Positions 8,704 to 38,328 of a stretch of 64,000 bases of DNA are shown piece after piece. Source of the DNA: Deltaproteobacteria bacterium (lineage in GTDB: Bacteria > Desulfobacterota > Deferrimicrobia > Deferrimicrobiales > Deferrimicrobiaceae); contig JACRCO010000053.1 of the NCBI GenBank assembly GCA_016218975.1, positions 15,523 to 79,522 of the forward strand. The letters are read 5' to 3'. Position numbers and translations under genes: made by a program. The notes beneath the pieces were generated by a model that searched no databases, was not told where the DNA came from, and saw nothing but the letters and a program-made list of their open reading frames with translations. Numbering within the stretch: position 1 is the first letter of the stretch; each line of letters begins with the position of its first letter.

Positions 8704-8716
8704 GTCTTCTCCTCTG

Positions 8717-12494: not shown

Positions 12495-12539
12495 TTCTTC
12501 GGAAAATAAATATTTCACCCGGATCAGCGACGCTCCGGG
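12495..12539 (-). terminator. Rho-independent terminator candidate after the lipoprotein gene
   Basis: Minus-sense CCCGGAGCGUCGCUGAUCCGGG hairpin (plus 12518..12539) followed by U-rich UGAAAUAUUUAUUUUCC. Confidence 0.4.
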
Positions 12540-12541
12540 CT

Positions 12542-14267: not shown

Positions 14268-14335
14268 GATCCGGGTCCTCCCCCCATTAATATTACACTG
14301 CCCGCCTCAGGCCGGCCCGCATTCATCATGCGGGT

Positions 14336-16525: not shown

Positions 16526-16529
16526 AACG

Positions 16530-17966: not shown

Positions 17967-18035
17967 GATCGTCTTCCCTTTCCTCGTACGGGTAATTCGA
18001 ATGCCGATGCGATGCTCCAGGCCATTCTATCGAAT

Positions 18036-18077
18036 CAAGAAAAAGGGAAGGGGGCCTTTTTGCATGCTGGCCCCCTT
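18036..18077 (-). terminator. Rho-independent terminator after the OmcS-family gene
   Basis: Minus-sense GGGGGCC-agcaugcaaaaa-GGCCCCC hairpin followed by UUCCCUUUUUCUUG. Confidence 0.65.
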
Positions 18078-18126
18078 CCCCGGTTTACTTCAGCCGGACA
18101 AGACGATTCCGGCTACACGATCGACA

Positions 18127-22990: not shown

Positions 22991-24375
<1,385 letters not shown>

Positions 24376-24379
<4 letters not shown>

Positions 24380-25830
24380 GTGGCCGTCTCCGCAGCAACG
24401 GCGGCGACGGGAAGCAGGATCCGGAACACCGTGCCGCCTCCCGGGTTGTCTGCGGCAGAAATTTCTCCGCCGTGCTGTTCGATCAGCTGTTTGGAAATGG
24501 CCAGTCCCAATCCAGTGCCCTTGGGCTTTGTCGTGAAGAACGGCTGGAAGATCTTTTCGATGTTTTCCCTCGGGATCCCCTTGCCGGTGTCGGCGAATTC
24601 GATCCGAAGGAAATCCGTTTCCTTTTCATGGGAGGTGCGCACCGAGAGCGTTCCCCCGTTGGGCATTGCATCCACGGCGTTCAGGACGAGGTTCAGGAAG
24701 ATCTGCTGGAGCTGCATGGGATCCGCCATCGTTTCCGGGAGCGGCTGAAGGTCCTTCTCTATACGGACGGCGTTCGGGCGGTCCGGCGCAGACGGGCGGC
24801 TTTTCATGTAAAAGGCAAGGACGGTGTTGACGAGGCTGTTTACGTTCAGATCCGCAAGCTGCGGCTTGGCCGGCTTGGCGAAGTTAAGGAAGTTCCTCAT
24901 CAGGGATTCCACGCGCACGACCTCCTGCGCGACTTTGCGGATGACTTCCCGGTCTTCCGCAGACATGCTCGTTTCCTCGGACAGAACGTGCATGGCCACC
25001 TTGATGCCCGCGAGCGGGTTCTTGATCTCGTGGGCAAGGCCCGCCGCCAGCTCGCCGACGATCACCATCTGCTCGGTCCGCTGCATCTTCAACATCTGTT
25101 CCTTGAGCGATGCCGCCATCTCGTTGAACGATGCAGCCAGCTCTCCGAATTCGTCCTTCAGGGCCTCGACCCGGTGATCCAGGTTTCCGGCTTTCAGCTT
25201 TCTCGTCGAATCGAGCAGCACGTTGACCGGGTTCGTCAGCCCGGACAGGAATATGTAGCCGAGGAACGCCGACATCAACGGGCCGATCCCGACGAGGAAA
25301 TACAGCATATACTTCGTCCGCGCGATGCGGATCATCGCCCTTTGCGTATTCTCCGCAAGCTTCGAGCTCGTGATCGCGATCACGTCCCGGACCTTGCCGA
25401 TCAGGTCCTCTCCGATCTGGAAGGCCGCATCCTCCTCCGCCAGGATCCTTGCGGTGTTCGCGCGAAGCGTCAGCACGCGGCTCAATGCGTCCTTGTAGGT
25501 CTCCGTCTGCTTTTTCAGGTCCTGGAGCCTCTCGGTCGCCTGCTGGTTGTGATGGCAGTCGAAACAGGTATCTACGATCCTTCCCATGCTGACGACGTTC
25601 TGGACGACGGTGTCGAAAGTACGCTTATGCCGCGTGTCCTTGAGGGTCAGGTCCGTTTGGACCCTTTTTACCTGCAGCAGGTAGTGCTCCCTCAGGATTT
25701 CCACCTGGTGGAGCGTTATCAGCCTGTCGAGCTCAGTCGTCGCGGACTGGATGATGTAGATGATGTAGATGCCGCAGAGGAGAAAAAACAGCGTATAGAT
25801 GCCAAGGCCGATGATTATCTTCTTCTTCAT
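24376..25830 (-). CDS. Sensor histidine kinase (TM, periplasmic domain with one CxxCH, TM, HAMP, HisKA, HATPase)
   Basis: TM1 IIIGLGIYTLFFLLCGIYII. Periplasmic loop contains VDTCFDCHHN (about 25552..25566). TM2, HAMP, H-box LAAGLAHEIKNPL, G-boxes DTGKGI / GTGLGLAIS. Overlaps the regulator gene by 4 nt. Confidence 0.85.
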
Positions 25831-25839
25831 AAATGAACG

Positions 25840-26748
25840 TCAGTCGTTGATGTAGTCGTAGGTGGCCAGGTTGAGATGGATTTCACTCGCGTAGTTCACG
25901 ACGGGGGTGTAATCCGCGTTCGTGGTTTCGATGAACCATCGCGCCCCGAACTGCTCCAGGACCGCCTTCCCCTCCGGATCTTCGTGCATTTTCAGAAGCG
26001 CATCCTTCATGCTGCTTCTCAACGCCTTATCGATATCCTTCCGGAGAGCCAGGCCGTTTTCGGGGACGTCGGGAGACTTCGCGAGAATCGTCAGCTCCTT
26101 CAGGATACGCGGGTCCGCCTTCGCGACCCGGTAGTACACCGTATTTTTCGCCGCTCCGACATCGGCTTTCCTGTTCAACACGTCGTATACGGCATCCTCG
26201 TGCGTCCCCGAGAAATACGCTTCCCCAAGGTATTTCTTCCAGTCGTCGATTCCCGCCTCGTGAAAATACCGCTTCGGGAACAGGTAGCCTGCGGTCGTGG
26301 CCTTGTCCACTAAGGCGAACCGCTTTCCCTTCATCTCCCGTCTGGACGCGATGCCGCTGTCCTTCCGCACGAAGATCAACCCGTGGTAGCTCGAGGTGTT
26401 GTCGAGCGCAACCGGCCTGGCCAGCACTTCCACCCCGATTTTGGCGTGGGCGAGCGCATATGTGAAACTCCCGAAGAATGCGCCGTCCAATCCCGCCATC
26501 TTGAAGTTGTCTATGATGTTCCCGTACCTGGGGAGGATCTTAAGCGTGATCCTCGTCCCGGTTTTCGACGAGAGATAGACGGCAAGGGGCTCGTATCGCT
26601 CGATCTGCTTGAAAATGTTCTGTTCCGGAATAAGGCCGATCAGTATGGTCTTTCGCTTGTCCGCGGAAGGCTTGAAAGGCGTATTTTCCTGGCTGCACCC
26701 GGCGAGAAGAAAAAGGAAGAGGCATGCGGCGAGCAGATGTCGGGCCAT
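25840..26748 (-). CDS. PhnD/SsuA-like periplasmic substrate-binding lipoprotein (phosphonate-ABC SBP family)
   Basis: MARHLLAACLFLFLLAGCSQ lipoprotein signal. LIGLIPEQNIFK...LPRYGNIIDNF...GAFFGSFTYA...VDKATTAGYL typical of the PhnD family. Confidence 0.8.
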   Translation of the reverse strand: MARHLLAACLFLFLLAGCSQENTPFKPSADKRKTILIGLIPEQNIFKQIERYEPLAVYLSSKTGTRITLKILPRYGNIIDNFKMAGLDGAFFGSFTYALAHAKIGVEVLARPVALDNTSSYHGLIFVRKDSGIASRREMKGKRFALVDKATTAGYLFPKRYFHEAGIDDWKKYLGEAYFSGTHEDAVYDVLNRKADVGAAKNTVYYRVAKADPRILKELTILAKSPDVPENGLALRKDIDKALRSSMKDALLKMHEDPEGKAVLEQFGARWFIETTNADYTPVVNYASEIHLNLATYDYIND

Positions 26749-26797
26749 CTTTTAGAATACTACCATATATTTCGATTACTTCGCCATAAATCAAGCG

Positions 26798-27706
26798 TCA
26801 GTCATTTATGTAGTCGTAGGTGGCGAGGCTCAGGCCGGCTTCTTTTGCATACCTTGCCACGGACTCGTAATCCTTGTTCGTGGTCTCGACGAATCTCCGC
26901 GCACCGAACTGCTCCAGCACCGACTTTCCCCTGGCGTCGAGGTGCATGTTCAGGAGCGCATCCTTCAAACCGGTTCGGAAGGAATCTTCGATATCCTTCC
27001 GGAGCGCCAGGGAGTTTTCCGGCATGTCGGGGGATGTTTCCAGGATCGACAACTCTCTTTTTATCCGCGGGTCGGATACCGCGACCCGGTTGAACACCGT
27101 GTTCTTCGACGCGCCTATGTCGGCCTTCCTGTTGAGCACATCGAAGATCGCGTCCTCGTGCGTTCCCGTAAAATAACCCTCCTTGAGATATTTTCTCCAA
27201 TCGATTCCCTTCTCATGGAAATATTTCAGGGGGAAAAGATAACCGGCGGTCGTCGCCTTGTCCACGAAAGCGAACCGCTTCCCTTTCATGCCGTCGATCG
27301 TCCTGATCCCGCTGTCCTTCCTTACGAAAATCATCCCGTGGTAGGTGGATGTGTTGTCGTTGTATTCCGGACGCGCAAGGACTTCCACCCCAAGCTTCGC
27401 GTGGGCAAGCGCGTACGTGAAACTCCCGAAAAATGCGCCGTCCAGCCCCGACATCCTGAAATTGTCGATGATGTTCCCGTACCTCGGGAGAATTTTAAGA
27501 GATATATTCATCCCGGTTTTCGCGGAGAGATACGCGGCCACGGGTTCGTATCTCTCCAACTGCTTGAATATGTTCTGCTCCGGTATCAGCCCGATAAGGA
27601 CGGTCTTCCGGTTGACCGCCGGGGATCTTGAAGGAGGATTGTCCTGGCTGCACCCTGCCGCAATAACAACTCCCAGGATAACGATAAAAGCCGATCTCCG
27701 GAACAT
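26798..27706 (-). CDS. PhnD/SsuA-like periplasmic substrate-binding lipoprotein, tandem paralog
   Basis: Same motifs as the 25840..26748 gene (LIGLIPEQNIFKQLERYEP...). Visibly similar at the DNA level. Confidence 0.8.
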   Translation of the reverse strand: MFRRSAFIVILGVVIAAGCSQDNPPSRSPAVNRKTVLIGLIPEQNIFKQLERYEPVAAYLSAKTGMNISLKILPRYGNIIDNFRMSGLDGAFFGSFTYALAHAKLGVEVLARPEYNDNTSTYHGMIFVRKDSGIRTIDGMKGKRFAFVDKATTAGYLFPLKYFHEKGIDWRKYLKEGYFTGTHEDAIFDVLNRKADIGASKNTVFNRVAVSDPRIKRELSILETSPDMPENSLALRKDIEDSFRTGLKDALLNMHLDARGKSVLEQFGARRFVETTNKDYESVARYAKEAGLSLATYDYIND

Positions 27707-27747: not shown

Positions 27748-30700
27748 CTATAGTTCATGCTGGCCTTTCTTGTGGCAGCGCTTGCAGAGATCGGCCCGCT
27801 TGTTCGCATTCGTCATTTTTTCGAAATCGGATCCGTGCGGGTTATGGCAACTGATGCAATCGATGTACTTACCCGTTTTCGCATCCACGTATTTCCCTTT
27901 TCCCATCCCGTGGAGGTGAGTGTCGGGAACCTTCGGATGGCAACCAAGGCACAGTTTGTTCATGTCCGCCGAGAGCAGCTTGGGCTGTTCCCCCGTATGC
28001 GCCACGTGGCAGCTTTCGCAACCCTTCTCCACGGGTGGGTGCTTATAGGTAACCTTCGCCATTTCCGCGCCGTGGCAATCGAAGCACAGGCCCGGAGAAG
28101 AACGGTAAAGCAGGCCCTTCGCAGGCGCGGAGTGCGGCGAATGGCAGCTGCCGCATTTTTTGTCCGAATCGATCGGGAAGTGGCGTGTTTTCCCCGCAAA
28201 TCCCTTTTTCTTCACATCCTGGTGGCAGTTGAAGCAGAGGTCCGGGCCTCGGGCCGAAAGCTCCTTTTTCCCCTCTCCCGCATGGCATGATACGCACTTC
28301 CCCTCGGAATACGGCTGATGTCCGAAGTTGTGCGCCAGCGCCTTTGCGCCCTTTGCGCCGGCATGCGGGTCGTGGCAGGTGAGGCAATCGGCCCTCGAAA
28401 TATCCATTCCCCTGTGTTTCGGGGCCGCTCCGGCGGCATCGTGGCAGGTCCAGCAGATGTCCGGAACCGGCTTCGAGAGCAGCCGCCTCTGGTTCGTCCC
28501 GTGCGGATCGTGGCAGGAACCGCAGGCGCCTTCGGCGACCGGGTCGTGGAGTTTTTTCCCCGCGAGCCCCTGCCTGAACGATTCGTGGCACCCGTAGCAG
28601 AACTCCTTCTCCGGTTTCGGCAGAAGGAACCTGTTCCCCGCCGAGTGGGCGGCGTGGCACGCCTTGCACGATCCTTCCTCGAGGGGCTTGTGCCTGTATT
28701 TCCTTTGCGGAATGTCGGCCTTGTCGGAATGGCATGCGTTGCAGAATTTCGCACCCTGCGCGACGAGCAGTTTATCCCCCGAAGATGCATGCGGGTCGTG
28801 GCATGATACGCACTCTCCCTTCTTCACCGGTCCGTGCACCACAGGGTCCTTCTGCGTCTTCTCCATCCCGGAATGACAGGTGAAGCAGAGCTTCTCCTTC
28901 GGCGCGGCCAGCACGATTTCGCCGTTCGCCCCCGCCTTTCCGTGGCATGAATCGCATTTGCGGGTTTTGAACGGCTCGTGGGCCTTTGCCTTCATCAGCT
29001 TTCCGGTTACCGAAGAGTGCGGGTCGTGGCACGAGGCGCAGTTGGATTTCCTGTCCGCCATGTCCCGGTGGACCTTCCGGAATTCATCTTTCGTGAGGCT
29101 GTGGCAGGAGGCGCACAGGTCCCCCACCGGTTTCACGAGGCTGCCGGGATTGCTGGAGCCGTGTGGGGAGTGGCAGGTGTCGCACTTCTCCTTCTCCACC
29201 GGAAGGTGGACCTTCCCCTCCCTGAACCGCTTCTTCTCCTCCTTGTGGCAGGAGTAGCAGAGCTCGGCGCCGGCCAGTGAAAGAAGCTTCGGCCGGTCCG
29301 CGCCGTGCGGATCGTGGCAGCCGGCGCAGTCTCCCCGGGCCGCCGGCGTGTGCACCGCCCTTCGCTTGAAGATCTCCTTCAGATCGTCATGGCACGAAAG
29401 ACACAGCGATTTTTCATCCTTCGCCAGCATTGCCTTCGTGTCGCTGCCGTGAGGACCGTGGCAGGAAACGCACCCTTCCGTGGCGGGGGAGTGGGGGAAC
29501 TTCTTCGCCACGGCCTTCTTCATGTCCCCGTGGCACGTGTAGCACAGGCCGGCGCCTTCCTGCTTCGTTAGCCCCTTGCCCTCCGAGCGGTGCGGAGTGT
29601 GACAAACCGAACACCCCTGTTCGACAAGCGGTTTGTGCTTGCGGCGATATCCCCCGGCTTCCTTCAGGTCGCCGTGGCAGCCGGTGCACAGGACGGCTTC
29701 GGCCGCGACGAGCAGCTTCCCGTTCAGCGTCGAGTGGGCGCCGTGGCACGTCAGGCAGCCGTTGTCGTCTAAAGCCGCGTGGCGCGTCCCGGTCCGGGCG
29801 AGCTCCTTCGCGACCTTTTCGTGGCAGGAAAGGCAGAGTCCTTCCCCTGCGGACCTGACGAGTTTTTTGTTGTCCGATCCGTGCGATTCGTGGCAGGCGT
29901 CGCACCGGCTTTTCGCCATAGGAGCGTGTACCTGCGGCTTTTTGAAATCGTCGTCGAGGCGCAGGTGGCATTCGAGGCATATTCCCTTCAAATCGCCTTT
30001 CAGGAGGGGACGCGAAGCGCTTTTGTGCGGCGAGTGGCATTTCAGGCAGTCCCCGTCCCTGGCCGGGAAGTGCGAAACCGGTTTCTTCGTCTTTTTCGAG
30101 ATGTCGTCGTGGCAGTTGGCGCACAGCTCCTTGACCGGCTGGACCAGGGAGCTCTTCACCTTCCCTTCCGTTCCGACCTCGTGGCAGTCGGCGCAGTCCC
30201 CGCGCGCATACGGCTCGTGGACTTCCGGCAACACCCCGCCCTTTTTCGCCGTTCCGTGGGGGCTGTGGCAGGCGGTGCAGGACTGGTTCTTCACCTCCGC
30301 TATGTCGTGAGGCTTTTTCCCCGCCGTTTTTTCCGCCGCGTGGCAGGAGAAGCATAGGTCATTTCCAGCCTTCAGCAGCAGCCTCGGTTCGTCGGTCGAG
30401 TGAGGCGGGTGACAAAGCGAACACTCCCCGTTCCTGAACGGCGAATGGATCCAGACGCCGGACGAAAGCCGCTTCATCTCCTTGTGGCATTCGAAGCAGA
30501 CGGAGGACTTGTCGGCGGTTTCCCTGACGAGCCCTTTGAGGTTCGAAGCATGGGGGTCGTGGCAGGCGGTGCACTCGCCTTTTTTCGCCGGAGAGTGCAT
30601 CGTTTTCTTCCCGAACTTGTCCTTCAGGTCCTTGTGGCACGAATAGCAGAGCTGCGCGCCCTTTTCCTTGAGGATCAGCTTGTTCGAGAAGCCGTGGCGC

Positions 30701-30897
30701 CGGTGGCACGCCTCGCAGTCCTCCTTCGCCACGGGAGCGTGCACGAATTTCCTTTGATGCGCCGCCTTCGCTTTCGGGTGGCAGTCGTAGCAGCCCTTTT
30801 TCGCCGCCAGGATATCGCCCGCGCCACCGGCGAAAATGCAAAGGATTGCGACAGTAGATAAAGCGCCCAGGACCGCTATCCGCCGAACCGTTTTCAT
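27748..30897 (-). CDS. Giant multiheme cytochrome c, about 42 CxxCH motifs (1,049 aa)
   Basis: Signal peptide MKTVRRIAVLGALSTVAILCIFAGGAG. I counted 42 CxxCH motifs, regularly spaced (c7-polymer type), alternating CxxCHxxH and CxxCH. Confidence 0.9.
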   Translation of the reverse strand: MKTVRRIAVLGALSTVAILCIFAGGAGDILAAKKGCYDCHPKAKAAHQRKFVHAPVAKEDCEACHRRHGFSNKLILKEKGAQLCYSCHKDLKDKFGKKTMHSPAKKGECTACHDPHASNLKGLVRETADKSSVCFECHKEMKRLSSGVWIHSPFRNGECSLCHPPHSTDEPRLLLKAGNDLCFSCHAAEKTAGKKPHDIAEVKNQSCTACHSPHGTAKKGGVLPEVHEPYARGDCADCHEVGTEGKVKSSLVQPVKELCANCHDDISKKTKKPVSHFPARDGDCLKCHSPHKSASRPLLKGDLKGICLECHLRLDDDFKKPQVHAPMAKSRCDACHESHGSDNKKLVRSAGEGLCLSCHEKVAKELARTGTRHAALDDNGCLTCHGAHSTLNGKLLVAAEAVLCTGCHGDLKEAGGYRRKHKPLVEQGCSVCHTPHRSEGKGLTKQEGAGLCYTCHGDMKKAVAKKFPHSPATEGCVSCHGPHGSDTKAMLAKDEKSLCLSCHDDLKEIFKRRAVHTPAARGDCAGCHDPHGADRPKLLSLAGAELCYSCHKEEKKRFREGKVHLPVEKEKCDTCHSPHGSSNPGSLVKPVGDLCASCHSLTKDEFRKVHRDMADRKSNCASCHDPHSSVTGKLMKAKAHEPFKTRKCDSCHGKAGANGEIVLAAPKEKLCFTCHSGMEKTQKDPVVHGPVKKGECVSCHDPHASSGDKLLVAQGAKFCNACHSDKADIPQRKYRHKPLEEGSCKACHAAHSAGNRFLLPKPEKEFCYGCHESFRQGLAGKKLHDPVAEGACGSCHDPHGTNQRRLLSKPVPDICWTCHDAAGAAPKHRGMDISRADCLTCHDPHAGAKGAKALAHNFGHQPYSEGKCVSCHAGEGKKELSARGPDLCFNCHQDVKKKGFAGKTRHFPIDSDKKCGSCHSPHSAPAKGLLYRSSPGLCFDCHGAEMAKVTYKHPPVEKGCESCHVAHTGEQPKLLSADMNKLCLGCHPKVPDTHLHGMGKGKYVDAKTGKYIDCISCHNPHGSDFEKMTNANKRADLCKRCHKKGQHEL

Positions 30898-30919: not shown

Positions 30920-31537
30920 CTATTTTCGAAGCGACGCGGAGAACGCCCTGGCCATCTCGGCCGCCGTCTCCTCCGCGAGGTTGTTGATGGAATGGATCCT
31001 GCCTATCCCGAAAACCGTTTCCCTGTCGCTGCCTCGCCGGGAGGCGTTGCCCGCCCAGACGATATCCCCCGTGGAGGCGTCGAGTATGCGAAGGGACATC
31101 GAGACCACCGGAATCTGTCCCGAGCCCCCCGCCCCCGTGGCGATCTGCATGTCGAAGTCGTGCACCGTTCCCATCATGAACAGGTCCACTCCGAGCCCTC
31201 TGCCCAGGGCGACGAGGGTCTCCCTGGGTATGCTGGTCGCCAGCCGTACCCTCTCCTTCGAAAGCATGGCGTTAACCTCGCCGGGATCGAGGACCATAAC
31301 CGGGGCGTTTTTCAGGAGTTCCACGAGGATGTAGCTTTCCATCGATTTCCCCGCCCCCTGGGTCTTGCTCAAATTCTCGAACGGCAGGATCGCCATCTTC
31401 ACCCCTTCGCCTTTCCTGAGGCCGGCGCCGGTGAACGGCTTCAGGGTGGGTCCGCACCCGAACAGCAGCGCGGAGACCAGCAGCAGGGCGGCGATCCGCA
31501 AACGAGACGATCGGCGTCCGGTAACGTGTATTCCCAT
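30920..31537 (-). CDS. Lipoprotein, CsgG/LpoB/DUF799-superfamily-like
   Basis: LLLVSALLFGCGPT lipobox. VKMAILPFENLSKT...VDLFMMGTVHDF...TGDIVW. Confidence 0.7.
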   Translation of the reverse strand: MGIHVTGRRSSRLRIAALLLVSALLFGCGPTLKPFTGAGLRKGEGVKMAILPFENLSKTQGAGKSMESYILVELLKNAPVMVLDPGEVNAMLSKERVRLATSIPRETLVALGRGLGVDLFMMGTVHDFDMQIATGAGGSGQIPVVSMSLRILDASTGDIVWAGNASRRGSDRETVFGIGRIHSINNLAEETAAEMARAFSASLRK

Positions 31538-31552: not shown

Positions 31553-32167
31553 CTATTTCGAATATGCCTTCTTGTAGAAATCCTTGACGACGATTGCGCA
31601 CGATTTTTGCGAAAGTTCCCCGAGCGTGAACGTTTCGCCGATGCTGACGACGGGGAGATACGGACCGCCGGTGGCATTTATGCTCCCTTGCCACGCCACT
31701 GTTCCGGTGGGAGCGTCGATGAACTTGACCGTCATGGAGATCATCGGGTATTGATCCCCGCCGAGCTGGATCAGCTTGAAGTCGTGGACCGTCCCCGTGA
31801 ATACCCCCTGGACTCCCGCGACGCTCGCAACCTGGGAAAGCTGGGAGGGACTCAATTCGAGCGTCGACGTCGGAGCGTTCGACCGGACGACCTGCGCCAC
31901 CACGGCGTTGAACTGCCCCGGGTCCATCACTTCCAGTTCTCCGGCGATAAGCAGCTCGGTCATGAAATTCTCCGTCACCTTCTCCCCCGCGAGCCGGTCC
32001 TCGGCCTGGTTGCGGAACGGCATGAGCCCTACCTTCTTGTAAAAAGCAAAGTCCGCCTGGGGGTTCAGGAAACTTCGAGTGCTGACCAGCGAAGAGCAGC
32101 CGGCCGCGCACGAGGCGAGCAGGAGCACGAAGCCGAAAAGCATTCTTCTTGCCATTCGATCTCCCAT
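31553..32167 (-). CDS. Lipoprotein, CsgG/LpoB/DUF799-superfamily-like
   Basis: FVLLLASCAAGCSS lipobox. KKVGLMPFRNQA...VQGVFTGTVHDF...TGTVAW. Confidence 0.7.
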   Translation of the reverse strand: MGDRMARRMLFGFVLLLASCAAGCSSLVSTRSFLNPQADFAFYKKVGLMPFRNQAEDRLAGEKVTENFMTELLIAGELEVMDPGQFNAVVAQVVRSNAPTSTLELSPSQLSQVASVAGVQGVFTGTVHDFKLIQLGGDQYPMISMTVKFIDAPTGTVAWQGSINATGGPYLPVVSIGETFTLGELSQKSCAIVVKDFYKKAYSK

Positions 32168-33924
32168 CAGAACGATTTGCTGAAACGGACCCGGAAGAAG
32201 TCTGTCCGTTCCTCCCTGAAAAGTTGCGTGCCGGAATAGGCAAGCTCCAGGCTGACACGCTTCCTGAATGCGAGCCCCAGCGTCCCCGAGAAGGTATGGT
32301 CGCTCCTGCCTGCCGCCTGCCTCGCGCCGTAGTTCAGGCTCATCTGGTGCCCGCGCCGGAAACGGTAGGCCATCGTTCCAGTGGCCGAATAAGACGATCT
32401 CCCGGTCTCCGGCAGCGACACCGTCCCGGAAAGGCCGTAGATGGTCCGCCGGTTGGCCATGTATGAAAGGGAAGTGTTGAAGTTCTGGTTGCCGATCCTG
32501 CCGAGGTCCAGCCGTTCGGCGGACGATGCCGAGGAATAGCTGAGCGCCAGGTTCGTCTTGTCGGTAGGTATCGCGTTCACCTGGACCGACTTGTTGACCG
32601 AATAACTTTCCGTGACCGGTTCGACGTGGGCCGTAAGGACCCAGTCTCCGATCGCGGTCGAGTTCTTCGTGTACAGGTCGTTGCCGACGACGTCGAAATA
32701 GGTGAAGCCGGGAGGACGGTCGTCGAACAGGACCCTGTCCGCCAGCGTCCCGGAAGCGTTGTAGCCGGCCGTGCTTACGAAAGTGCGCGACTCGCTCCGG
32801 TTCGCGTTCAGGTTCAGGCGCAGCGAGATCCGCTGCGTCAGGTCCATCGTGGAGTTGACCCCGAAATTGTCGCTTACGTTCCTGCCCTGGTCAGGGTCGG
32901 ATTCGACGCTCCGCGAACCGCTCGCCCCGAGAAGTACCCCCTCCCTTAGCTGCTTGCTGACGTTGGCGGCGTAAGTGACGAAATCGACGCTGCGCATCGT
33001 CTGCGCGTCGTTGAAACGCCTGTTTCCCGTCGTGCCCGAGAACCGCAGGAAGGGATATGGGTCGAGGTTGGCGGTCACGTCGGAGAACTGCTGCGTGGTC
33101 CTGGTCACGGCGGCGGACGGGGAATCGAAGTCGGTGTCCGTCCTCGAGTAATTCCCTGTGAATCCGAGCCACGGCAAGGGCCGCGTGTCGGCGCTCATGC
33201 GGAAGGCGTTGCCGATCGTCGCCGTCTCCTGCCCCGCGCCGCTCGTGGCGGAAAAGCGGTTGTAATCGTAGTCGCCCGTCAAGGTCGTCCTGGGCAGGAT
33301 TTCGTAGCTCCCCCCGAAACCCAGCAAGACGGTAGACGACTCCAGCCCCGCCTGCCCTCCGGACGTTCTCCGGTCGTTGGAATACCCCCCGCGGAAGTTC
33401 ATCCACTTGTACCGGTAGTCGCCGAAGAAGGATGCCGTGTCGCTCGACGTGACCGATCCCCCGGTCGCCGACTCGGTGCGCGAGAAGCTCGCCGAGAGCC
33501 GGGGGAGATCCTTGGGGGAAAGAGAAAGGGCCGCCCTGGAATTGCTCGTCTCGGTCAGCTGTGCGGCGGAGCTTATGGTGGAAAAACGGCTATGCTGGAG
33601 ATTCAGGGCGAACGCCTCCCCGGACAGATCCATACCCAGGTTGCCGACGGGGGATACGTTCAATACGCTCTCTTCGTCGGACCTGGTGTAGTTGAGGCGG
33701 AGGCTCAGGCGCGCCTGGATCTTTTTTTTCGTGGGCGGATATAAATCGAGGTTCACTCCGCCCTGGAAAAGCCTGGTGTCGTCCCGGGGCCCTCTCGCGT
33801 ATGTATCATCGAGGAAGAAATTACCGTTCACGCGTGTTATCGCCTCCGCGCGCTGCGGCGCGGCCGCCGTCAGCAGCGATGCAGCCGCCGCAAGAGCCAG
33901 AATTTCGAGCCATCCGGACTTCAA
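32167..33924 (-). CDS. Predicted outer-membrane beta-barrel protein, paralog-like of the 14336..16525 protein (start uncertain: TTG 33924 or ATG 33978)
   Basis: Ends ...FFRVRFSKSF (C-terminal aromatic). Signal peptide KSGWLEILALAAAASLLTAAAPQRAEA. Ser/Thr/Asn/Arg-rich strand-like composition. The full ORF would overlap the upstream cytochrome gene. Confidence 0.6.
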   Translation of the reverse strand: MKSGWLEILALAAAASLLTAAAPQRAEAITRVNGNFFLDDTYARGPRDDTRLFQGGVNLDLYPPTKKKIQARLSLRLNYTRSDEESVLNVSPVGNLGMDLSGEAFALNLQHSRFSTISSAAQLTETSNSRAALSLSPKDLPRLSASFSRTESATGGSVTSSDTASFFGDYRYKWMNFRGGYSNDRRTSGGQAGLESSTVLLGFGGSYEILPRTTLTGDYDYNRFSATSGAGQETATIGNAFRMSADTRPLPWLGFTGNYSRTDTDFDSPSAAVTRTTQQFSDVTANLDPYPFLRFSGTTGNRRFNDAQTMRSVDFVTYAANVSKQLREGVLLGASGSRSVESDPDQGRNVSDNFGVNSTMDLTQRISLRLNLNANRSESRTFVSTAGYNASGTLADRVLFDDRPPGFTYFDVVGNDLYTKNSTAIGDWVLTAHVEPVTESYSVNKSVQVNAIPTDKTNLALSYSSASSAERLDLGRIGNQNFNTSLSYMANRRTIYGLSGTVSLPETGRSSYSATGTMAYRFRRGHQMSLNYGARQAAGRSDHTFSGTLGLAFRKRVSLELAYSGTQLFREERTDFFRVRFSKSF

Positions 33925-33935: not shown

Positions 33936-35339
33936 CTATCGCGGGTAGTTGACCGCGTACGATTTCGTCGCATGGCATGTCGGAGTGCAGCTTCCGCCGC
34001 CTCCGCCCGGGACGAAGCTCAGGATCCCCGGGCTCCTCCCTGTTGCTATAAGCGCCGGGAACTGCGGCGAGCCGTGGGAATCGTGGCATGCGTAGCACGG
34101 GATGTTCCGCTCTCCGACGTGGAAAGCGTGCCCCCTCGTCGAGGATGGGGGGTTGAACCGGCTCGCCTGCTGCTCCGGCGCCGATGAAAACGGATTCGCA
34201 TACGTCTCGAAGTTGTGGCAGAGGAAACAGAGCTCCTGCCTGGTGACGACGCGGTTGAAGCTTCGTGCGTCGTACGCCCTGCGGAGCAGGTTGGGGAACT
34301 GCGATCCGTGCGGCCCTTTAAGGTTCGAATCGTCGGAGCCGTGGCAGTCGGCGCAATGGATGACGCTCATTGCGTTCCTCCCCGCCACGAACGCTGCCGG
34401 GTTGATCCCCGTGTTTTTCCCCTGTGCTTCCACCGGATGGAAGGAGGCGTTGTTCACGTTGAACAAACGGGCCATGTCCTGCTCGCCCGGCGGCTGGTTC
34501 GTCCACGACGAGTGGCACTTGAAGCAGATCTCGTATTCCAGCACCGGGGTGCTTACGTCGTTCGCAGGACGGTACTCGTAGAAAGGAATGGTCCCAGCGG
34601 CTCCGTTCACGACCCTTATGCGGCTCACCCTCGAGTTGCGGTTGGAGGCCGCAGGCGGGGCCGGCGGCAAGGGGTCCGCGGAAACGGCGTGTGCGTTGTG
34701 GCAGTCGGCGCATTCCGCATGCCGGTTGCCGCCGACGTAGGAAAAGAGCGCAGGGTCGCCTCCCTCGCCGGCACGGTGTTTTCCGGCCGTAATGACCGCG
34801 GGGTGGCTGTACGGCTTGCGGATCTCGCGCGCGATGTCGCGGAACGAGGGGTCTCCGTCGTGGCAGGCCGTGCAGAGGCTTTCCTCCCGTGCGACCATCT
34901 GGCTCGGTATCGCTCCCCGACTGTCCTGGCGGCCATGGGGGTCGTGGCAGTTCAGGCATTTGCCCGCTGCGCCAGCCTCCCTCCTCGAAGGCGGATACGG
35001 TCCCGGCCAGACCGTGCGTCCGTCGGTGCGATGGTTCGATGATTCGTAAGCGATCCGGCCGGGGTAGGTGCCGGCTATATTTTCGTTCTGGTGGCACGTA
35101 AAACAGAGTTCGTTGTCGTTCTCCCGCCAAAGCGCCTTGGGAAACCTGGCCTGGGCGTCTTCGTCCACGTGGCAATGGTTGCACCCGCCCCTGGATATCG
35201 CAGGGTCGCGCAGAACGCCCGTGACGGGGTTTCCGTGCCCGGTTTCGGCGTAAACACCCGCGGCCGCCGGCAAGGCACAGACCGTCCCCGCCATGATCGC
35301 GATCGCGAAGTTTACGAGCGCATGCCGCCTGCGGCTCAT
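33936..35339 (-). CDS. Multiheme cytochrome c (nine CxxCH plus one CxxxCH)
   Basis: ORF trimmed to ATG 35339 (MSRRRHALVNFAIAIMAGTVCALPAAAG). Motifs include CNHCH, CFTCH, CLNCHDPH, CTACHDG, CADCHNAH, CFKCH, CADCHGS, CFLCH, CYACHDSH and CTPTCH. Confidence 0.85.
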   Translation of the reverse strand: MSRRRHALVNFAIAIMAGTVCALPAAAGVYAETGHGNPVTGVLRDPAISRGGCNHCHVDEDAQARFPKALWRENDNELCFTCHQNENIAGTYPGRIAYESSNHRTDGRTVWPGPYPPSRREAGAAGKCLNCHDPHGRQDSRGAIPSQMVAREESLCTACHDGDPSFRDIAREIRKPYSHPAVITAGKHRAGEGGDPALFSYVGGNRHAECADCHNAHAVSADPLPPAPPAASNRNSRVSRIRVVNGAAGTIPFYEYRPANDVSTPVLEYEICFKCHSSWTNQPPGEQDMARLFNVNNASFHPVEAQGKNTGINPAAFVAGRNAMSVIHCADCHGSDDSNLKGPHGSQFPNLLRRAYDARSFNRVVTRQELCFLCHNFETYANPFSSAPEQQASRFNPPSSTRGHAFHVGERNIPCYACHDSHGSPQFPALIATGRSPGILSFVPGGGGGSCTPTCHATKSYAVNYPR

Positions 35340-35368
35340 GCCCGTGGCGATCCTCCTTCCGGGCGCGT

Positions 35369-36379
35369 CTATCGGTTGTGGCACTGCTGGCACCCCGCTA
35401 TCGAATCGGCGGGCCTACCGGGTTCCTTGTACGGCCACACCAAGCCCTTCCGATATTTCCCGCCGTGCGCCAGGTGGCAGCTTCCGCACATGACCTGGTT
35501 GCTTGCCGACACGGTTTTCGACGAGGCGAAATCGACCGCCCCGGCCGCCTGGAACCGCAGCCTCGGCACTCCTTCCACAAGGTCGCCCGTCGCAGTTCCG
35601 AAGCCGGCCCCCGAGCCGTCCGCCCAGTGGGCCGGATCCGTCGGCCACCCGGAGGGATATCCCGCTCCGTCGATCGGAACGTCGGAAAGATGGTGGAGCC
35701 GGTTGCCCGGCAGGTTCACGCTCGACTTCAGCCGGTCGTGGCACTCGGCGCACCATGCGGACGTTCCGGCCTTGTATCCTTCGTTCGACTCCTTGTATGC
35801 GGCGGCCGTGGCCGCGGCCGACGGAGGATCGCCGGGAGGCGCCTCCCTGAATACGTCCTTTCCCATCTCCGTTCCGATCCCCTGCCCTCCCGCCGGCGCG
35901 GTGAGAACGTTCCTGTAGTTGGGGGTCCCATGCGGGTCGTGGCAGGAGGCGCAAGTAAGGGTCGCGTTCGAAAGGGTGCTGAAAGGGACGGACGTCGAAT
36001 TAATCCCGAGATCGTGCCCGTTCTGGTTGGCGGCGCCTCCGCTGTTGGAGAAAGATCCGGCCCCGGAGTGCTCGTCGCCGCTTCCCGAATACATCGTCAC
36101 GGGTTCGAGGACGTCGGGAGCCTTGGGGTCGCTGCCGTCGTGGCAGAAAAGACAGAGCTTGTTGGTGGTGGCCCGGACCAGGAGCCTGGGAAACGGCCCT
36201 CCCGGCTCCACCTTCGCGGGCACGCCGCCCGCCTCGCTGTAGTGAAGCGTGTGGCAGTCGCCGCACGGCTGCCGGTTCTTCTGCAGGTCGTGATAGTAGG
36301 CGTGCGACACGTGCCCGGCGGCCAGGAACAGGAAGAGTCCTCCCGCGATCGATCCGCAATACAGGGACGCTCGTCTCAT
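35369..36379 (-). CDS. Hexaheme c-type cytochrome with OmcS-like motif order (family C)
   Basis: Signal peptide, then YYHD...CGDCHTLH, CLFCHDG, CASCHDPHG, CAECHDRL, CGSCHLAHGG, C-terminal CQQCHNR. This parallels OmcS heme-motif order and spacing. Confidence 0.8.
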   Translation of the reverse strand: MRRASLYCGSIAGGLFLFLAAGHVSHAYYHDLQKNRQPCGDCHTLHYSEAGGVPAKVEPGGPFPRLLVRATTNKLCLFCHDGSDPKAPDVLEPVTMYSGSGDEHSGAGSFSNSGGAANQNGHDLGINSTSVPFSTLSNATLTCASCHDPHGTPNYRNVLTAPAGGQGIGTEMGKDVFREAPPGDPPSAAATAAAYKESNEGYKAGTSAWCAECHDRLKSSVNLPGNRLHHLSDVPIDGAGYPSGWPTDPAHWADGSGAGFGTATGDLVEGVPRLRFQAAGAVDFASSKTVSASNQVMCGSCHLAHGGKYRKGLVWPYKEPGRPADSIAGCQQCHNR

Positions 36380-36383: not shown

Positions 36384-37301
36384 CTAATCCTTCAGGTCTC
36401 CCACCTGGAAAACCTGGACGCGCTCCGCCCCTTTCTCGAGGACGAAGAGCTCCCCTTTCTCGCCGAAACAGAGATCGACCGGAAAGAAGAACCCCCCGCT
36501 TTCGGTCGTCTCTTCCAGCCGCCCGAAGTTGAAAAGGAACTCTCCTTCCGCGGAGAACACCTTCAGCCGGTGCTGGAACGGGTCGGCGATCCAGAGCCGG
36601 CCCTTCGCGTCGGATGCGAACCCGGTCGGAAACGACATGTTCCTGTCCGACTTGTCGCCATGGTCTCCGAAGGAACGCAGGAGCTTGCCGCCGTCGTCGA
36701 AGAGCTGCACCGCCTTCCCCTGTGCGCTGACGCCCACGATACGCCCGCCGCTTTCCCTCCCGGCTTTCTGGAGGTAATCGAACTTTCCCATCGACCGGAT
36801 AAAATCTCCCCGCGAGGACAAGAGAAGGATTTCATTGCCGTCCAGGTCGGCGACATAAACCCGGTCGTCCCTGCCAAGCGTGATCCGGCCGGGTGAAACC
36901 TTGCGGCCCGCCGCATGGGCGAGGTCTATTTCGTCGGAGATCGCCCCCCCCGGACTGAAGATCTTCAGCAGGCCGGTCCGCACCTCGCTGACGTAGATCC
37001 GGCCCGCGTTGTCCAGCGCAACGCCGTACGGCGTGACCAGGCCCGCATCCGCGCCCATCCTCTTGACGATAGACCCGGCTTTGTCGAGGATGACTACCTC
37101 GCCGGACTCGAAGCTCGAAACGATCAGTTCCCCGCTTTTTCCGTCCCGGACGATCGCGAGAGGGCTCCTCAACGCCCGCTCTCCACCCTCATCCTTGAAG
37201 ACGGCGATCCGCCGGATCTCGGGAGCCATGACCTGCGCGAACCCCGGATGCGCGGCAAAAAGCAAGTTCAAACCCGCTGCTGCGAGCAGGATCCGCACCA
37301 T
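36384..37301 (-). CDS. NHL-repeat protein, secreted
   Basis: ORF trimmed to ATG 37301 (MVRILLAAAGLNLLFAAHPGFAQ). NHL-like blades (GRIYVSEVRTGLLKIF, DRVYVADLDGNEILLL, GRLWIADPFQHRLKVF). Confidence 0.8.
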   Translation of the reverse strand: MVRILLAAAGLNLLFAAHPGFAQVMAPEIRRIAVFKDEGGERALRSPLAIVRDGKSGELIVSSFESGEVVILDKAGSIVKRMGADAGLVTPYGVALDNAGRIYVSEVRTGLLKIFSPGGAISDEIDLAHAAGRKVSPGRITLGRDDRVYVADLDGNEILLLSSRGDFIRSMGKFDYLQKAGRESGGRIVGVSAQGKAVQLFDDGGKLLRSFGDHGDKSDRNMSFPTGFASDAKGRLWIADPFQHRLKVFSAEGEFLFNFGRLEETTESGGFFFPVDLCFGEKGELFVLEKGAERVQVFQVGDLKD

Positions 37302-37416
37302 GAACGTCGCGCCGCCAAGCCGGCGGGCGAGCCCCCGCGAGGGACACCCCGTGAGGCGTGCGTAGCCCGGCACTGTAACGGAAAATATTTTCGGAGCGGA
37401 AGACATCGGCTGTCGC

Positions 37417-38328
37417 TCAGATACCGGCGATCGAAAACACCGAGATCCGATTCCCCCCTTCTTCAAGGACGTACAGGTTCTCGTGCGGATCGACGGCAAG
37501 GTCCGCCGGGGAGAACAGGCCCTCTCCGCTCATCGAGAAGATCACGTTCCCGAGCGGATCGAGCGCCTTTATCCCGCGACCCCCCTCCTCAACGACCCAT
37601 ATCCGGCTTCGCGCGTCTACCGCGAGGGCCTTGATCCTGAGCGGCTCCCTCGAGCGCAGGGTTGATGTTCCGATCGTCCGAAGCTGTTTCCCGCGGTCGT
37701 CGTACACCCGGATCCCCCCGAACCCCGGGTCCGCCACGTATATCTTTCCCGTACGGTCGACCCATATGTCCGCGGGCTCGCCGACGTCTGCGATGGAGAA
37801 ACGCAGCTTCTCGTCAGCCCCGAAGGCAAGGACCTGCCGGTTCCCCCGGTCGGCGACGTAAAGATCGCCGTTCCAGTCCGCGAAAAGCGCGGCCGGCTGC
37901 ACCGGCGACGTTCTTCTGTATTGCTTGAGATCTATCTCGCGGTACGCCTCGGCGGCAACGGCGTCGTACCCGTCGAGCGCCTTCACGATTTCGCTTTCCC
38001 TCCCGGCGATGAAAAGCTTCCCTCCGCGCGTTGCGGCCACAGCCCTCGGATATCCCAGCTCGCCGCCTTTCCCCAGGACCTTGACGATCTGTCCTTTGCG
38101 GTCCAGAACGGAAACCTGGTGCAGCAGCGGATTGGCGACCGAAAGGTATCCCCTTTGCTCGTCGTACCAGAGGCCTGTCGGGGAAAGTAAGGCGAGGTCC
38201 GGACCGGAAGGAACGATCGTGACGGACCTTTCCAGGCACAGCGTCCGGGCGGGTGCCGGCGCAAGGATCATGAGTGCGGCCGTCAGCACGACCGCGAAAA
38301 GATCCTTTCGTGAAAATACATGGCGCAT
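37417..38328 (-). CDS. NHL-repeat protein, secreted
   Basis: Signal peptide MRHVFSRKDLFAVVLTAALMILAPAPA. Repeats GDLYVADRGNRQVLAF, GKIYVADPGFGGIRVY, ENLYVLEEGGNRISVF. Confidence 0.8.
   Translation of the reverse strand: MRHVFSRKDLFAVVLTAALMILAPAPARTLCLERSVTIVPSGPDLALLSPTGLWYDEQRGYLSVANPLLHQVSVLDRKGQIVKVLGKGGELGYPRAVAATRGGKLFIAGRESEIVKALDGYDAVAAEAYREIDLKQYRRTSPVQPAALFADWNGDLYVADRGNRQVLAFGADEKLRFSIADVGEPADIWVDRTGKIYVADPGFGGIRVYDDRGKQLRTIGTSTLRSREPLRIKALAVDARSRIWVVEEGGRGIKALDPLGNVIFSMSGEGLFSPADLAVDPHENLYVLEEGGNRISVFSIAGI

What the first reader, a model, noticed from the sequence alone, without database searches (positions are those of the whole stretch)
27748..30897. 42-heme c-type cytochrome
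I counted 42 CxxCH motifs in 1,049 residues, with c7-like ~22-28-residue periodicity. At roughly 1 heme per 25 aa this would be a periplasm-spanning or extracellular heme wire. The gene is only 41 bp upstream of the PhnD-like genes of a sensor module.
Basis: seen in the sequence. Interest (0 to 1): 0.6.

Follow-up and report, generated by a model that had tools for sequence, protein, structure and literature searches.

The report
One-piece 42-heme periplasmic electron wire
This is an intact gene for a secreted protein that carries 42 iron-containing heme groups in a row, part of a conserved outer-membrane electron-export gene cluster found in more than ten bacterial phyla, and it is probably a fixed-length wire that carries respiratory electrons across the space between the two cell membranes.

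Summary
It encodes 1,049 aa with exactly 42 CxxCH motifs, against 0.56 expected by chance.

The repeat unit is not c7-like. It is the diheme Paired_CXXCH_1 unit of MtrA/DmsE decahemes (21 hits), with 42 conserved distal His, so all hemes are probably bis-His. The AlphaFold2 model has pLDDT 88, and its only PDB fold match is MtrA.

The protein belongs to a widespread, uncharacterised family. In 56 of 75 species-level loci from more than 10 phyla the ORF has exactly 42 motifs.

The gene lies in a tightly packed conserved cluster: NHL propellers, an OmcS-like hexaheme, a 9-heme cytochrome, an MtrB-like barrel, two LpoB/CsgG-like lipoproteins, then the 42-heme gene.

The same window holds a canonical omcS-osc cluster with adjacent 26-heme and 16-heme genes (OscI/OscJ-like). 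They align colinearly with the two parts of the 42-heme protein, and 26+16=42.

My best reading is a periplasm-spanning wire of about 34-36 nm that feeds an outer-membrane conduit. That is inferred, not shown. I rate it a new variant of a known kind, interest 0.6.

The parts
27748..30897 (-). 42-heme c-type cytochrome gene (1,049 aa plus stop); mature protein about 1,017 aa, 110 kDa apo and about 136 kDa with hemes
   Evidence: ORF, 42 CxxCH; 21 Paired_CXXCH_1 units; 42 motifs and 42 distal His conserved in 71 sequences; AF2 pLDDT 88, MtrA fold; mass.
30802..30897 (-). Sec-type signal peptide (residues 1-32, ...AGDILA|AKKGC), ending about 3 residues before heme motif 1
   Evidence: Read by eye, no SignalP run. 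The family N-termini all show a hydrophobic core plus an AxA-like site 2-5 residues before the first CxxCH. The AF2 model has helix 2-23 followed by a low-pLDDT stretch at 24-31.
28942..30897 (-). OscI-equivalent part (residues 1-652, hemes 1-26)
   Evidence: Colinear, 36% identical to the in-window 26-heme protein, E 1e-124.
28861..28980 (-). Junction diheme unit (residues 640-679, hemes 26 and 27), the point where the two-gene version is split
   Evidence: The fragment alone hits Paired_CXXCH_1 positions 1-40 of 41, E 4e-11. The 26-heme paralogue ends 5 residues after its motif 26, and the 16-heme paralogue starts with motif 27.
27766..28899 (-). OscJ-equivalent part (residues 667-1044, hemes 27-42)
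   Evidence: 36% identical to the in-window 16-heme protein, E 5e-66.
30920..31537 (-). 205-aa lipoprotein (lipobox LFGC), LpoB/CsgG-like, OscG-like; 22 bases upstream of the 42-heme gene
   Evidence: Pfam CsgG/LpoB; 35% identity to the in-window OscG-like protein; homologue next to the 42-heme gene in 64 of 79 loci.
31553..32167 (-). 204-aa lipoprotein (lipobox AAGC), LpoB-like, OscF-like
   Evidence: NCBIfam LpoB, weak; 30% identity to the OscF-like protein; present in 64 of 79 loci.
32167..33924 (-). 585-aa outer-membrane beta-barrel of about 30 strands, C-terminal Phe, MtrB-like fold; its stop overlaps the start of the next gene by 1 base
   Evidence: No Pfam or NCBIfam hit. 100% identical to MBI5576051.1. 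AF2 pLDDT 85, all-beta. Top PDB fold hit is MtrB 6r2q_B, E 4.7e-10, TMq 0.50. An HMM finds the syntenic ORF in 29 loci.
33936..35393 (-). Cytochrome with 9 CxxCH motifs (485-aa ORF)
   Evidence: Syntenic 6-, 9- or 12-heme homologues in 68 loci. No PDB sequence relative.
35369..36379 (-). Hexaheme cytochrome (336 aa), distantly OmcS-like
   Evidence: Weak OmcS match, 6ef8_A E 2.4e-6. Homologues in 63 loci.
36384..38328 (-). Two NHL-repeat beta-propeller proteins (371 and 303 aa)
   Evidence: Pfam NHL; conserved neighbours in 51 and 35 loci.
38347..40515 (-). PD40/WD40-like beta-propeller protein (722 aa), first gene of the cluster; a sigma-70-like promoter match lies at 40650-40622
   Evidence: Present at the same place in the nearest relatives L005-L007, L009, L030, L037, L073.
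22991..27706 (-). Downstream sensor module: PhnD-like lipoproteins (26798-27706, 25840-26748), HAMP histidine kinase with one CxxCH in its periplasmic domain (24376-25830), sigma-54 response regulator (22991-24379)
   Evidence: Pfam; CFDCH at residue 89 of the kinase; same module after the 42-heme gene in L006, L007, L030; no minus-strand terminator match in the 41-base gap.
6524..19395 (-). Paralogous canonical omcS-osc cluster: OmcS homologue (18127-19395), YNCE propeller (16530-17966), 756-aa barrel ending in Phe (14336-16606), lipoproteins (13686-14267, 12542-13708), SurA-like PPIase (10724-12460), 26-heme (8717-10702), 16-heme (7432-8778, likely start 8703), NHL protein (6524-7690)
   Evidence: OmcS match 6ef8_A E 3.8e-108 over the full length. 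Gene names from PMC13194489 and bioRxiv 2025.11.06.686851.

Best explanation
The gene encodes a Sec-exported, soluble, peptide-minimised cytochrome. It holds 42 bis-His c-type hemes in one continuous MtrA-type chain, built from 19 diheme Paired_CXXCH units plus four single-heme half-units. It is the one-piece form of the 26-heme plus 16-heme pair (OscI/OscJ-like) of omcS-companion clusters.

Proposed mechanism (inferred): it acts as a static wire of fixed length. One end docks in or at the MtrB-like outer-membrane barrel encoded four genes upstream. By analogy with MtrA, this would be the C-terminal, OscJ-equivalent end. The chain then extends across the periplasm towards inner-membrane quinol-oxidising cytochromes. 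Electrons would pass to the OmcS-like hexaheme and 9-heme cytochromes outside the cell.

Scaled from MtrA (80 A for 10 hemes), 42 hemes give about 34-36 nm if straight. That is enough for a periplasm of about 23.5 nm plus an outer membrane of about 4-5 nm.

Shown: the ORF, the motif count, the domain type, the conserved ligands, family conservation, synteny, the fold predictions and the fused/split relationship. Inferred: localisation, straightness, docking partners and direction of electron flow.
For: - **ORF and motif count.** The ORF is intact with 42 CxxCH, against 0.56 expected by chance.
- **Domain type.** 21 Paired_CXXCH_1 hits, 727 bits.
- **Conserved ligands.** All 42 motifs are invariant in 71 sequences at 33-39% identity, and exactly 42 further His columns are conserved.
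- **Export signal.** The family has Sec signal peptides with an AxA site just before heme 1.
- **Fold.** The AF2 model has pLDDT 88; its only PDB fold and sequence relative is MtrA, 6r2q_A.
- **Heme count across species.** 56 of 75 GTDB species loci carry an ORF with exactly 42 motifs, and most exceptions are cut by contig ends. 70 of the top 120 database hits have 42 motifs and 34 have 26.
- **Synteny.** The module is conserved across phyla, with lipoprotein homologues in 64 of 79 loci.
- **Barrel.** The adjacent 585-aa protein is predicted as a barrel of about 30 strands whose best PDB match is MtrB, and it has syntenic homologues in distant phyla.
- **Operon packing.** Gaps are 22, 15, -1, 11 and 4 bases.
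- **Fused/split relationship.** The in-window 26-heme and 16-heme paralogues are colinear with residues 1-652 and 667-1044. The break lies inside one diheme unit. The same 26+16 pair, with overlapping stop and start codons, occurs in Planctomycetes and Acidobacteria.
- **Conservation pattern.** Non-heme conservation is highest at both termini, as expected for two docking ends.
- **Lengths.** MtrA's chain is 80 A (PMC7198977). The Shewanella periplasm is 235 +/- 37 A (PMC5971433).
Against: - There is no experimental localisation.
- I could not read the model coordinates, so straightness and end-to-end length are not measured. pTM is only 0.60 and the model has no hemes.
- The window cluster encodes no inner-membrane quinol dehydrogenase. 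A TM-anchored 7-heme cytochrome sits next to the gene only in Zixibacteria/Ignavibacteria-type loci.
- The barrel does not match the MtrB_PioB Pfam model.
- The barrel shows no detectable similarity to the 756-aa barrel of the canonical osc cluster.
- In published work the OscEFG proteins are proposed to secrete OmcS filaments rather than to hold a wire (PMC13194489).
- Periplasm width is unknown for these uncultured organisms.
- In one Zixibacteria genome the gene lies away from the rest of the module (L001).
Confidence: 0.55

Rival explanations
1. The 42-heme protein is itself exported through the barrel/lipoprotein channel. It would then work outside the cell as a monomeric nanowire of about 35 nm, or as a sheath-bound wire, rather than in the periplasm.
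For: It is encoded directly after a large barrel and two CsgG/LpoB-like lipoproteins. The homologous OscEFG proteins are proposed to secrete OmcS (PMC13194489). MtrA assembly is described as a 'stalled excretion' through MtrB (PMC7198977).
Against: The cluster already encodes OmcS-like and 9-heme cytochromes that fit the extracellular role. PSORT-type predictions quoted in PMC13194489 list OscI and OscJ as periplasmic. The protein has only a Sec signal and no lipobox or known sorting tag. The exact heme count is conserved, which suits a fixed gap better than open space.
Confidence: 0.15
2. It is a periplasmic electron reservoir (capacitor), or a scaffold or chaperone-like template for loading and assembling the OmcS-like cytochromes. 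In that case it is not a membrane-to-membrane bridge.
For: 42 hemes can store 42 electrons. osc genes are linked to nanowire maturation. No inner-membrane partner is encoded in the cluster.
Against: A capacitor would not need an exactly conserved heme number or one-to-one alignment of all 42 sites across phyla. It would also not need higher conservation at the two ends. The fold is that of a linear wire protein, MtrA.
Confidence: 0.15
3. It is a c7-type polymer like the Geobacter 12- and 27-heme cytochromes (GSU1996, GSU2210).
For: The heme density is similar. Weak Cytochrome_C7 Pfam hits lie under the stronger ones. 42 is divisible by 3.
Against: The period is two hemes, not three. TIGR04257 (the c7 triheme domain) is not hit. 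There is no conserved Met ligand, while there are 42 conserved His. The fold match is to MtrA.
Confidence: 0.03
4. The long ORF is an artefact of assembly of repetitive DNA, or a pseudogene.
For: The exact protein is missing from the 15-billion-sequence collection although its neighbour is present.
Against: There are no DNA tandem repeats. The frame is uninterrupted. The protein is colinear with 70 or more homologues of the same length and heme count. Relatives of 58-72% identity exist in other MAGs. Operon spacing is tight and an RBS is present.
Confidence: 0.02

Closest known systems
MtrA, the decaheme of the Shewanella MtrCAB porin-cytochrome complex (PDB 6R2Q chain A; DmsE/MtrA family TIGR03508)
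   Same: Same diheme Paired_CXXCH building block, bis-His hemes, very little polypeptide per heme and a Sec signal. It is the only solved fold and sequence relative. The score is above the TIGR03508 cut-off. The gene lies near a barrel whose best structural match is MtrB.
   Different: 42 hemes in 1,049 aa against 10 hemes in about 330 aa, so about 4.2 times longer. The family score comes from 8 partial repeats. The partner barrel lacks the MtrB_PioB signature. The cluster also holds two LpoB/CsgG-like lipoproteins, NHL propellers and OmcS-like cytochromes instead of MtrC. A separate, ordinary MtrA/MtrB-like pair lies elsewhere in the window at 50698-54230.
OscI (GSU2495, 26 hemes) and OscJ (GSU2494) of the Geobacter sulfurreducens omcS-companion (osc) cluster (Shen et al. 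2025, cited in PMC13194489)
   Same: The window's own osc-type pair (26 + 16 hemes) is colinear with the two parts of the 42-heme protein at 36% identity. The total is the same, 42. Neighbours are shared: OscF/OscG-like lipoproteins, a barrel, NHL proteins and an OmcS-like hexaheme.
   Different: One polypeptide instead of two. The cluster has no SurA-like PPIase (OscH) and no YNCE propeller (OscD). It carries an extra 9-heme cytochrome. Its barrel is not detectably similar to the osc barrel. Most fused proteins form their own clade in a rough NJ tree. I could not compare directly with the G. sulfurreducens sequences, and the Shen paper is not held.
c7-type polymer cytochromes of Geobacter (GSU1996 with 12 hemes, GSU2210 with 27 hemes)
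   Same: Long chains of closely spaced hemes made by repeating a small module, proposed as 'nanowire' or capacitor proteins. PMC2996986 notes 12- and 27-heme fusions of c7 modules.
   Different: Those have a triheme module with one His-Met heme. This protein has a diheme module with all-His ligation and no TIGR04257 hit.
OmcS cytochrome filament (PDB 6EF8)
   Same: A continuous heme chain for long-range electron transfer. An OmcS homologue and OmcS-like paralogues are encoded in the same window.
   Different: OmcS reaches length by polymerising a 6-heme subunit outside the cell. Here a defined length of 42 hemes is encoded in a single chain, or in two chains.

Membership tests
Paired_CXXCH_1 multiheme cytochromes (PF09699 / TIGR01905) | Significant match to the doubled-CXXCH model above the curated cut-off | tested here: met
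   727 bits against a cut-off of 20.6, 21 stretches; 700 bits against 25.2.
Paired_CXXCH_1 multiheme cytochromes (PF09699 / TIGR01905) | Two CxxCH about 23 residues apart, with flanking His that can serve as distal ligands | tested here: met
   Alternating 25/23 spacing; 42 conserved extra His columns; single units are recognised in isolated fragments.
DmsE/MtrA decaheme family (TIGR03508) | Score above the family cut-off | tested here: met
   462 bits against 192.2, but spread over 8 partial stretches of a repeat protein.
DmsE/MtrA decaheme family (TIGR03508) | Ten hemes in about 300-350 aa | tested here: not met
   42 hemes in 1,049 aa.
DmsE/MtrA decaheme family (TIGR03508) | Partnered with an MtrB/PioB-type porin (PF11854) | tested here: inconclusive
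   The cluster barrel has no Pfam hit, yet its AF2 model's best PDB match is MtrB (E 4.7e-10, TMq 0.50).
c7-type polymer cytochromes (TIGR04257 nanowire_3heme; GSU1996/GSU2210) | Repeated triheme c7 domains | tested here: not met
   No TIGR04257 hit at E <= 0.01; the period is two hemes.
c7-type polymer cytochromes (TIGR04257 nanowire_3heme; GSU1996/GSU2210) | One His-Met coordinated heme per module (from my own knowledge of GSU1996) | tested here: not met
   42 conserved non-motif His; the only Met column at >=50% is M998, at 62%.
OscI/OscJ of the omcS-companion cluster | Sequence homology to the 26-heme and 16-heme proteins that follow the PPIase in an omcS cluster | tested here: met
   36% identity and colinear with the in-window pair (E 1e-124 and 5e-66). 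That pair lies in a cluster headed by a full-length OmcS homologue.
OscI/OscJ of the omcS-companion cluster | Two separate genes (26 + 16 hemes), each with its own signal peptide | tested here: not met
   A single ORF with one signal peptide. The junction is a continuous diheme unit.
OscI/OscJ of the omcS-companion cluster | Encoded with OscD (propeller), OscEFG (channel) and OscH (PPIase) | tested here: inconclusive
   OscF/G-like lipoproteins, a barrel and NHL propellers are present. No PPIase or YNCE propeller is present, and the barrel is not detectably homologous.
OscI/OscJ of the omcS-companion cluster | Orthology to G. sulfurreducens GSU2495/GSU2494 themselves | not tested
   These sequences were not retrievable.

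The most novel reading that the evidence does not exclude
The heme number is a molecular ruler. Exactly 42 hemes have been kept for a very long time across more than ten phyla because the chain must hard-wire the inner membrane to an outer-membrane barrel across a periplasm of fixed width. It comes either as one polypeptide or as 26 + 16 hemes that dock by re-forming a split diheme unit. If so, many uncultured bacteria move respiratory electrons across the periplasm through a static protein wire and not by diffusing shuttle cytochromes.
Probability: 0.35. Interest if true: 0.8.

Novelty: new variant of a known kind. Interest (0 to 1): 0.6.

Why it matters
How electrons cross the 20-30 nm periplasm during extracellular respiration is still debated. 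In Shewanella and Geobacter the accepted answer is small diffusing cytochromes, because MtrA-type proteins are too short (PMC5971433).

A single-chain MtrA-type wire about four times longer offers a different, testable answer. Its heme count is fixed at 42 in Zixibacteria, Ignavibacteria, Latescibacteria, Krumholzibacteria, Eisenbacteria, Gemmatimonadota, Nitrospirota, Desulfobacterota and Myxococcota.

It also suggests a role for OscI/OscJ of the Geobacter omcS cluster; I found no function described for them in the two papers I could read. It further suggests that the two act as one 42-heme unit. Geobacter is genetically tractable, so length-variant and fusion experiments are feasible.

The family could also serve as a metagenomic marker for this type of electron-export module.

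Tried and rejected
- **Exact look-ups.** The 42-heme protein was not on record in the position index or the protein collection. The neighbour P0121 is in the collection but not in the position index. The source contig could therefore not be fetched. The neighbour identifies the source only as a 'Deltaproteobacteria bacterium' MAG (MBI5576051.1).
- **First protein search.** It listed nothing above 39% identity, although the genome scan later found relatives at 58-72%. The word-based candidate filter evidently misses close relatives of this repeat protein.
- **Literature.** No paper in the held library mentions a 42-heme cytochrome. 'omcS-companion' found nothing. Shen et al. 2025 is not held, so I do not know whether they describe the fused form.
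- **Sigma-54 promoters.** The consensus scan gave 19 matches against 18.8 expected, so no support for a promoter link to the sigma-54 regulators.
- **Promoter and terminator scan.** Counts were at chance level. There is only a weak sigma-70-like site upstream of the first cluster gene.
- **The two barrels.** BLAST and HMM comparison of the cluster-2 barrel with the 756-aa barrel of the osc cluster found no similarity.
- **Search with the 26-heme paralogue.** It did not return a named G. sulfurreducens protein.
- **Fold searches.** Model coordinates are not exposed, so the wire length could not be measured.
- **c7-polymer reading.** Rejected; see the membership test.
- **Lipoprotein or membrane-anchor reading of the N-terminus.** Rejected. 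Cys20 is not in a lipobox, and homologues show ordinary cleavable signal peptides.


Full report
**1. Observation**

The ORF at 27748..30897 is real, but it lies on the minus strand. The plus-strand translation is full of stops. The minus-strand translation is one open frame of 1,049 residues.

- I count exactly 42 CxxCH motifs and no variant motifs.
- 84 of the 85 cysteines are in motifs.
- Spacing is 20-31 residues and mostly alternates 25/23.
- Residue shuffles give 0.56 motifs on average and at most 5.
- ATG 30897 is the only plausible start and follows a GGGAAGG ribosome-binding-like site.
- The 41-base gap to the PhnD-like gene is correct.
- The gene has no DNA-level tandem repeats and normal GC content, so assembly collapse is unlikely.

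**2. What the repeat is**

Pfam finds 21 Paired_CXXCH_1 units (727 bits). NCBIfam finds the same domain, plus above-cut-off but piecemeal matches to the DmsE/MtrA and GSU2203 decaheme families. The c7 triheme model is not hit.

From the spacing, and from isolated fragments scanned on their own, the chain reads as 19 diheme units plus four single 'half-units' at hemes 1, 8, 25 and 34.

In an alignment of 71 family members at 33-39% identity, all 42 motifs are invariant. Exactly 42 further His columns are conserved, 40 of them at 93% or more. That fits bis-His ligation of every heme, as in MtrA.

The N-termini of the family are ordinary Sec signal peptides with an AxA-type site 2-5 residues before heme 1. 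This was read by eye, not with SignalP. The mature protein is about 1,017 aa, 110 kDa without hemes and about 136 kDa with them.

**3. Structure**

AlphaFold2 with the family alignment gives mean pLDDT 88 and pTM 0.60. The only significant PDB fold match is chain A of 6R2Q, which is MtrA of the Shewanella MtrCAB complex (E 1e-6, TM 0.63 on the target). It is also the top PDB sequence match.

I could not read coordinates, so the overall shape is not measured.

**4. Family**

- The large protein search returned about 70 proteins of 986-1,100 aa with exactly 42 motifs, and 34 proteins of about 650-700 aa with exactly 26.
- A scan of one genome per GTDB species found 75 loci. The closest are a 'Deltaproteobacteria bacterium' MAG (72%), Geobacteraceae and Anaeromyxobacter MAGs (64%), and Nitrospiraceae/Thermodesulfovibrionia MAGs (59-61%).
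- The rest, at 33-43%, are Zixibacteria, Ignavibacteria, Krumholzibacteria, Eisenbacteria, Latescibacteria, Gemmatimonadota, Glassbacteria and others.
- 56 of the 75 loci carry an ORF with exactly 42 motifs. Nearly all exceptions are cut by contig ends or broken.
- The source genome itself is not in that collection. The neighbouring barrel gene is 100% identical to MBI5576051.1 from a Deltaproteobacteria MAG.

**5. Context**

The gene is the last cytochrome gene of a tightly packed minus-strand cluster with gaps of 22, 15, -1, 11 and 4 bases. In transcription order the cluster is:

- a PD40 propeller;
- two NHL propellers;
- a hexaheme cytochrome weakly related to OmcS;
- a 9-heme cytochrome;
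- a 585-aa protein with no family match;
- two lipoproteins of about 205 aa with LpoB/CsgG-like matches;
- the 42-heme gene.

The 585-aa protein is predicted with pLDDT 85 as a barrel of about 30 strands ending in Phe. Its best PDB match is MtrB.

Mapping window proteins onto all fetched loci shows the same module next to the 42-heme gene across phyla. Lipoprotein homologues are present in 64 of 79 loci and the small cytochromes in 63-68. A barrel HMM hits the syntenic ORF in 29 loci, including distant phyla. There are two gene orders: the 42-heme gene is last in the window type and first in the Zixibacteria/Ignavibacteria type.

The PhnD/kinase/regulator genes follow the 42-heme gene only in the nearest relatives (L006, L007, L030).

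**6. The split paralogue**

At 6524-19395 the window holds a second cluster. It contains:

- a full-length OmcS homologue (6EF8, E 3.8e-108);
- a YNCE propeller;
- a 756-aa barrel;
- two lipoproteins;
- a SurA-like prolyl isomerase;
- a 26-heme cytochrome;
- a 16-heme cytochrome with its own signal peptide;
- an NHL protein.

This matches, gene for gene, the published description of the G. sulfurreducens omcS-companion block GSU2501-GSU2493, where GSU2495 (26 hemes) is OscI and GSU2494 is OscJ.

The 26-heme protein aligns colinearly with residues 1-652 of the 42-heme protein, and the 16-heme protein with residues 667-1044, each at 36% identity. So 26 + 16 = 42.

The break falls between motifs 26 and 27, inside a stretch that Pfam recognises on its own as a single diheme unit.

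The same 26 + 16 pair, with overlapping stop and start codons, occurs in Planctomycetes and Acidobacteria MAGs in osc-type clusters.

A rough neighbour-joining tree puts 79 fused proteins in one clade and most 26-heme proteins in another, with a few exceptions. Deep branches are short, so the direction and number of fusion events are unresolved.

**7. Mechanism**

MtrA's ten hemes span 80 A (PMC7198977). Scaling by heme steps gives about 36 nm for 42 hemes if straight, about 22 nm for 26 hemes and about 13 nm for 16.

The Shewanella periplasm is 23.5 +/- 3.7 nm, and MtrA is regarded as too short to bridge it (PMC5971433).

I therefore propose a static wire. One end sits in or at the MtrB-like barrel, the chain crosses the periplasm, and the outer OmcS-like cytochromes receive the electrons. 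Four observations fit a fixed span with two docking ends:

- the exact conservation of the heme count;
- the one-to-one conservation of all sites;
- the higher conservation of non-heme residues at both termini;
- the equivalence of one-piece and two-piece forms.

In Zixibacteria/Ignavibacteria-type loci a membrane-anchored 7-heme cytochrome and a conserved secreted protein of about 160 aa precede the gene. These may be the inner-membrane side.

All of this is inference. Localisation, shape and partners are untested.

Rivals are export as an extracellular wire, a periplasmic capacitor or assembly scaffold, a c7 polymer (rejected), and an artefact (rejected).

**8. Comparison and novelty**

The protein works like MtrA but fails the decaheme definition. 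It is homologous to OscI plus OscJ but is fused, and it sits in a cluster that lacks the isomerase and has a different barrel.

No paper in the held library mentions a 42-heme cytochrome. The key osc paper could not be read.

I class it as a new variant of a known kind: a member of a widespread, database-visible but uncharacterised family.

Noticed in passing
window 6524-19395 (minus strand): A complete canonical omcS-osc type cluster: a full-length OmcS homologue, a YNCE propeller, a 756-aa barrel, two lipoproteins, a SurA-like PPIase, 26-heme and 16-heme cytochromes and an NHL protein. The organism therefore carries both the split and the fused version of the 42-heme wire within 20 kb.
   Followed up: yes
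window 24376-25830 and 46756-48216 (minus strand): Two paralogous HAMP histidine kinases each have a single CxxCH (CFDCH / CFTCH at residue 89) in the predicted periplasmic domain between two hydrophobic segments. This suggests heme-c based redox sensors. Kinases with one CxxCH also follow the 42-heme gene in L006, L007, L019 and L030.
   Followed up: partly
window 22991-27706, 45371-49100, 54425-58182 (minus strand): There are three copies of a PhnD-like binding protein + histidine kinase + sigma-54 response regulator module. Each lies next to a cytochrome or porin cluster. The third kinase has an sCache_3_2 domain instead of the heme motif.
   Followed up: partly
window 50698-54230 (minus strand): An ordinary porin-cytochrome pair: a 10-heme MtrA-like cytochrome (53211-54230) and a 951-aa MtrB/PioB porin (Pfam E 2.5e-130), followed by a hexaheme OmcS-like cytochrome (49149-50516).
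   Followed up: partly
window 18127-19395, 20818-22086, 40712-42112, 42139-44742, 49149-50516: Five OmcS-like hexaheme paralogues in one 64-kb window. Three of them end in a similar ...GG(T/S)KA(Y/F)(V/R)K(G/A)F tail, whose meaning is unknown.
   Followed up: no
L001 9524-9991, L002 9460-9945, L003 9488-9991 and about 40 other loci: A conserved secreted protein of about 160 aa with no family match (motifs HRxxPxF, NPAxxxRV, ESWAF, APHF) lies immediately upstream of the 42-heme gene in FCB-group, Gemmatimonadota and related loci. It is absent from the window cluster. In Zixibacteria/Ignavibacteria loci a TM-anchored 7-heme cytochrome of about 260 aa precedes it.
   Followed up: partly
window 27748-30897 versus public collections: The exact 42-heme protein and the 26-heme paralogue are absent from the 15-billion-protein collection, while the adjacent barrel (MBI5576051.1) is present. 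These repeat-rich genes may be unannotated or called differently in the source record. This is unexplained.
   Followed up: partly
window 1339-6423 (plus strand): A 1,694-aa protein with beta-helix, MBG, Ig-like and PKD domains, probably a large surface or adhesin protein, lies beside the osc cluster.
   Followed up: no
window 20604-20619 (minus strand): The best sigma-54-like promoter match in the window (TGGCATATGGCTTGCT, one mismatch) lies just upstream of the uncharacterised 329-aa ORF at 19600-20589. The overall match count is at chance level.
   Followed up: no
window 22283-22975 (plus strand): A response-regulator receiver fused to a PilZ domain (a c-di-GMP binding type) lies between the cytochrome clusters.
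   Followed up: no
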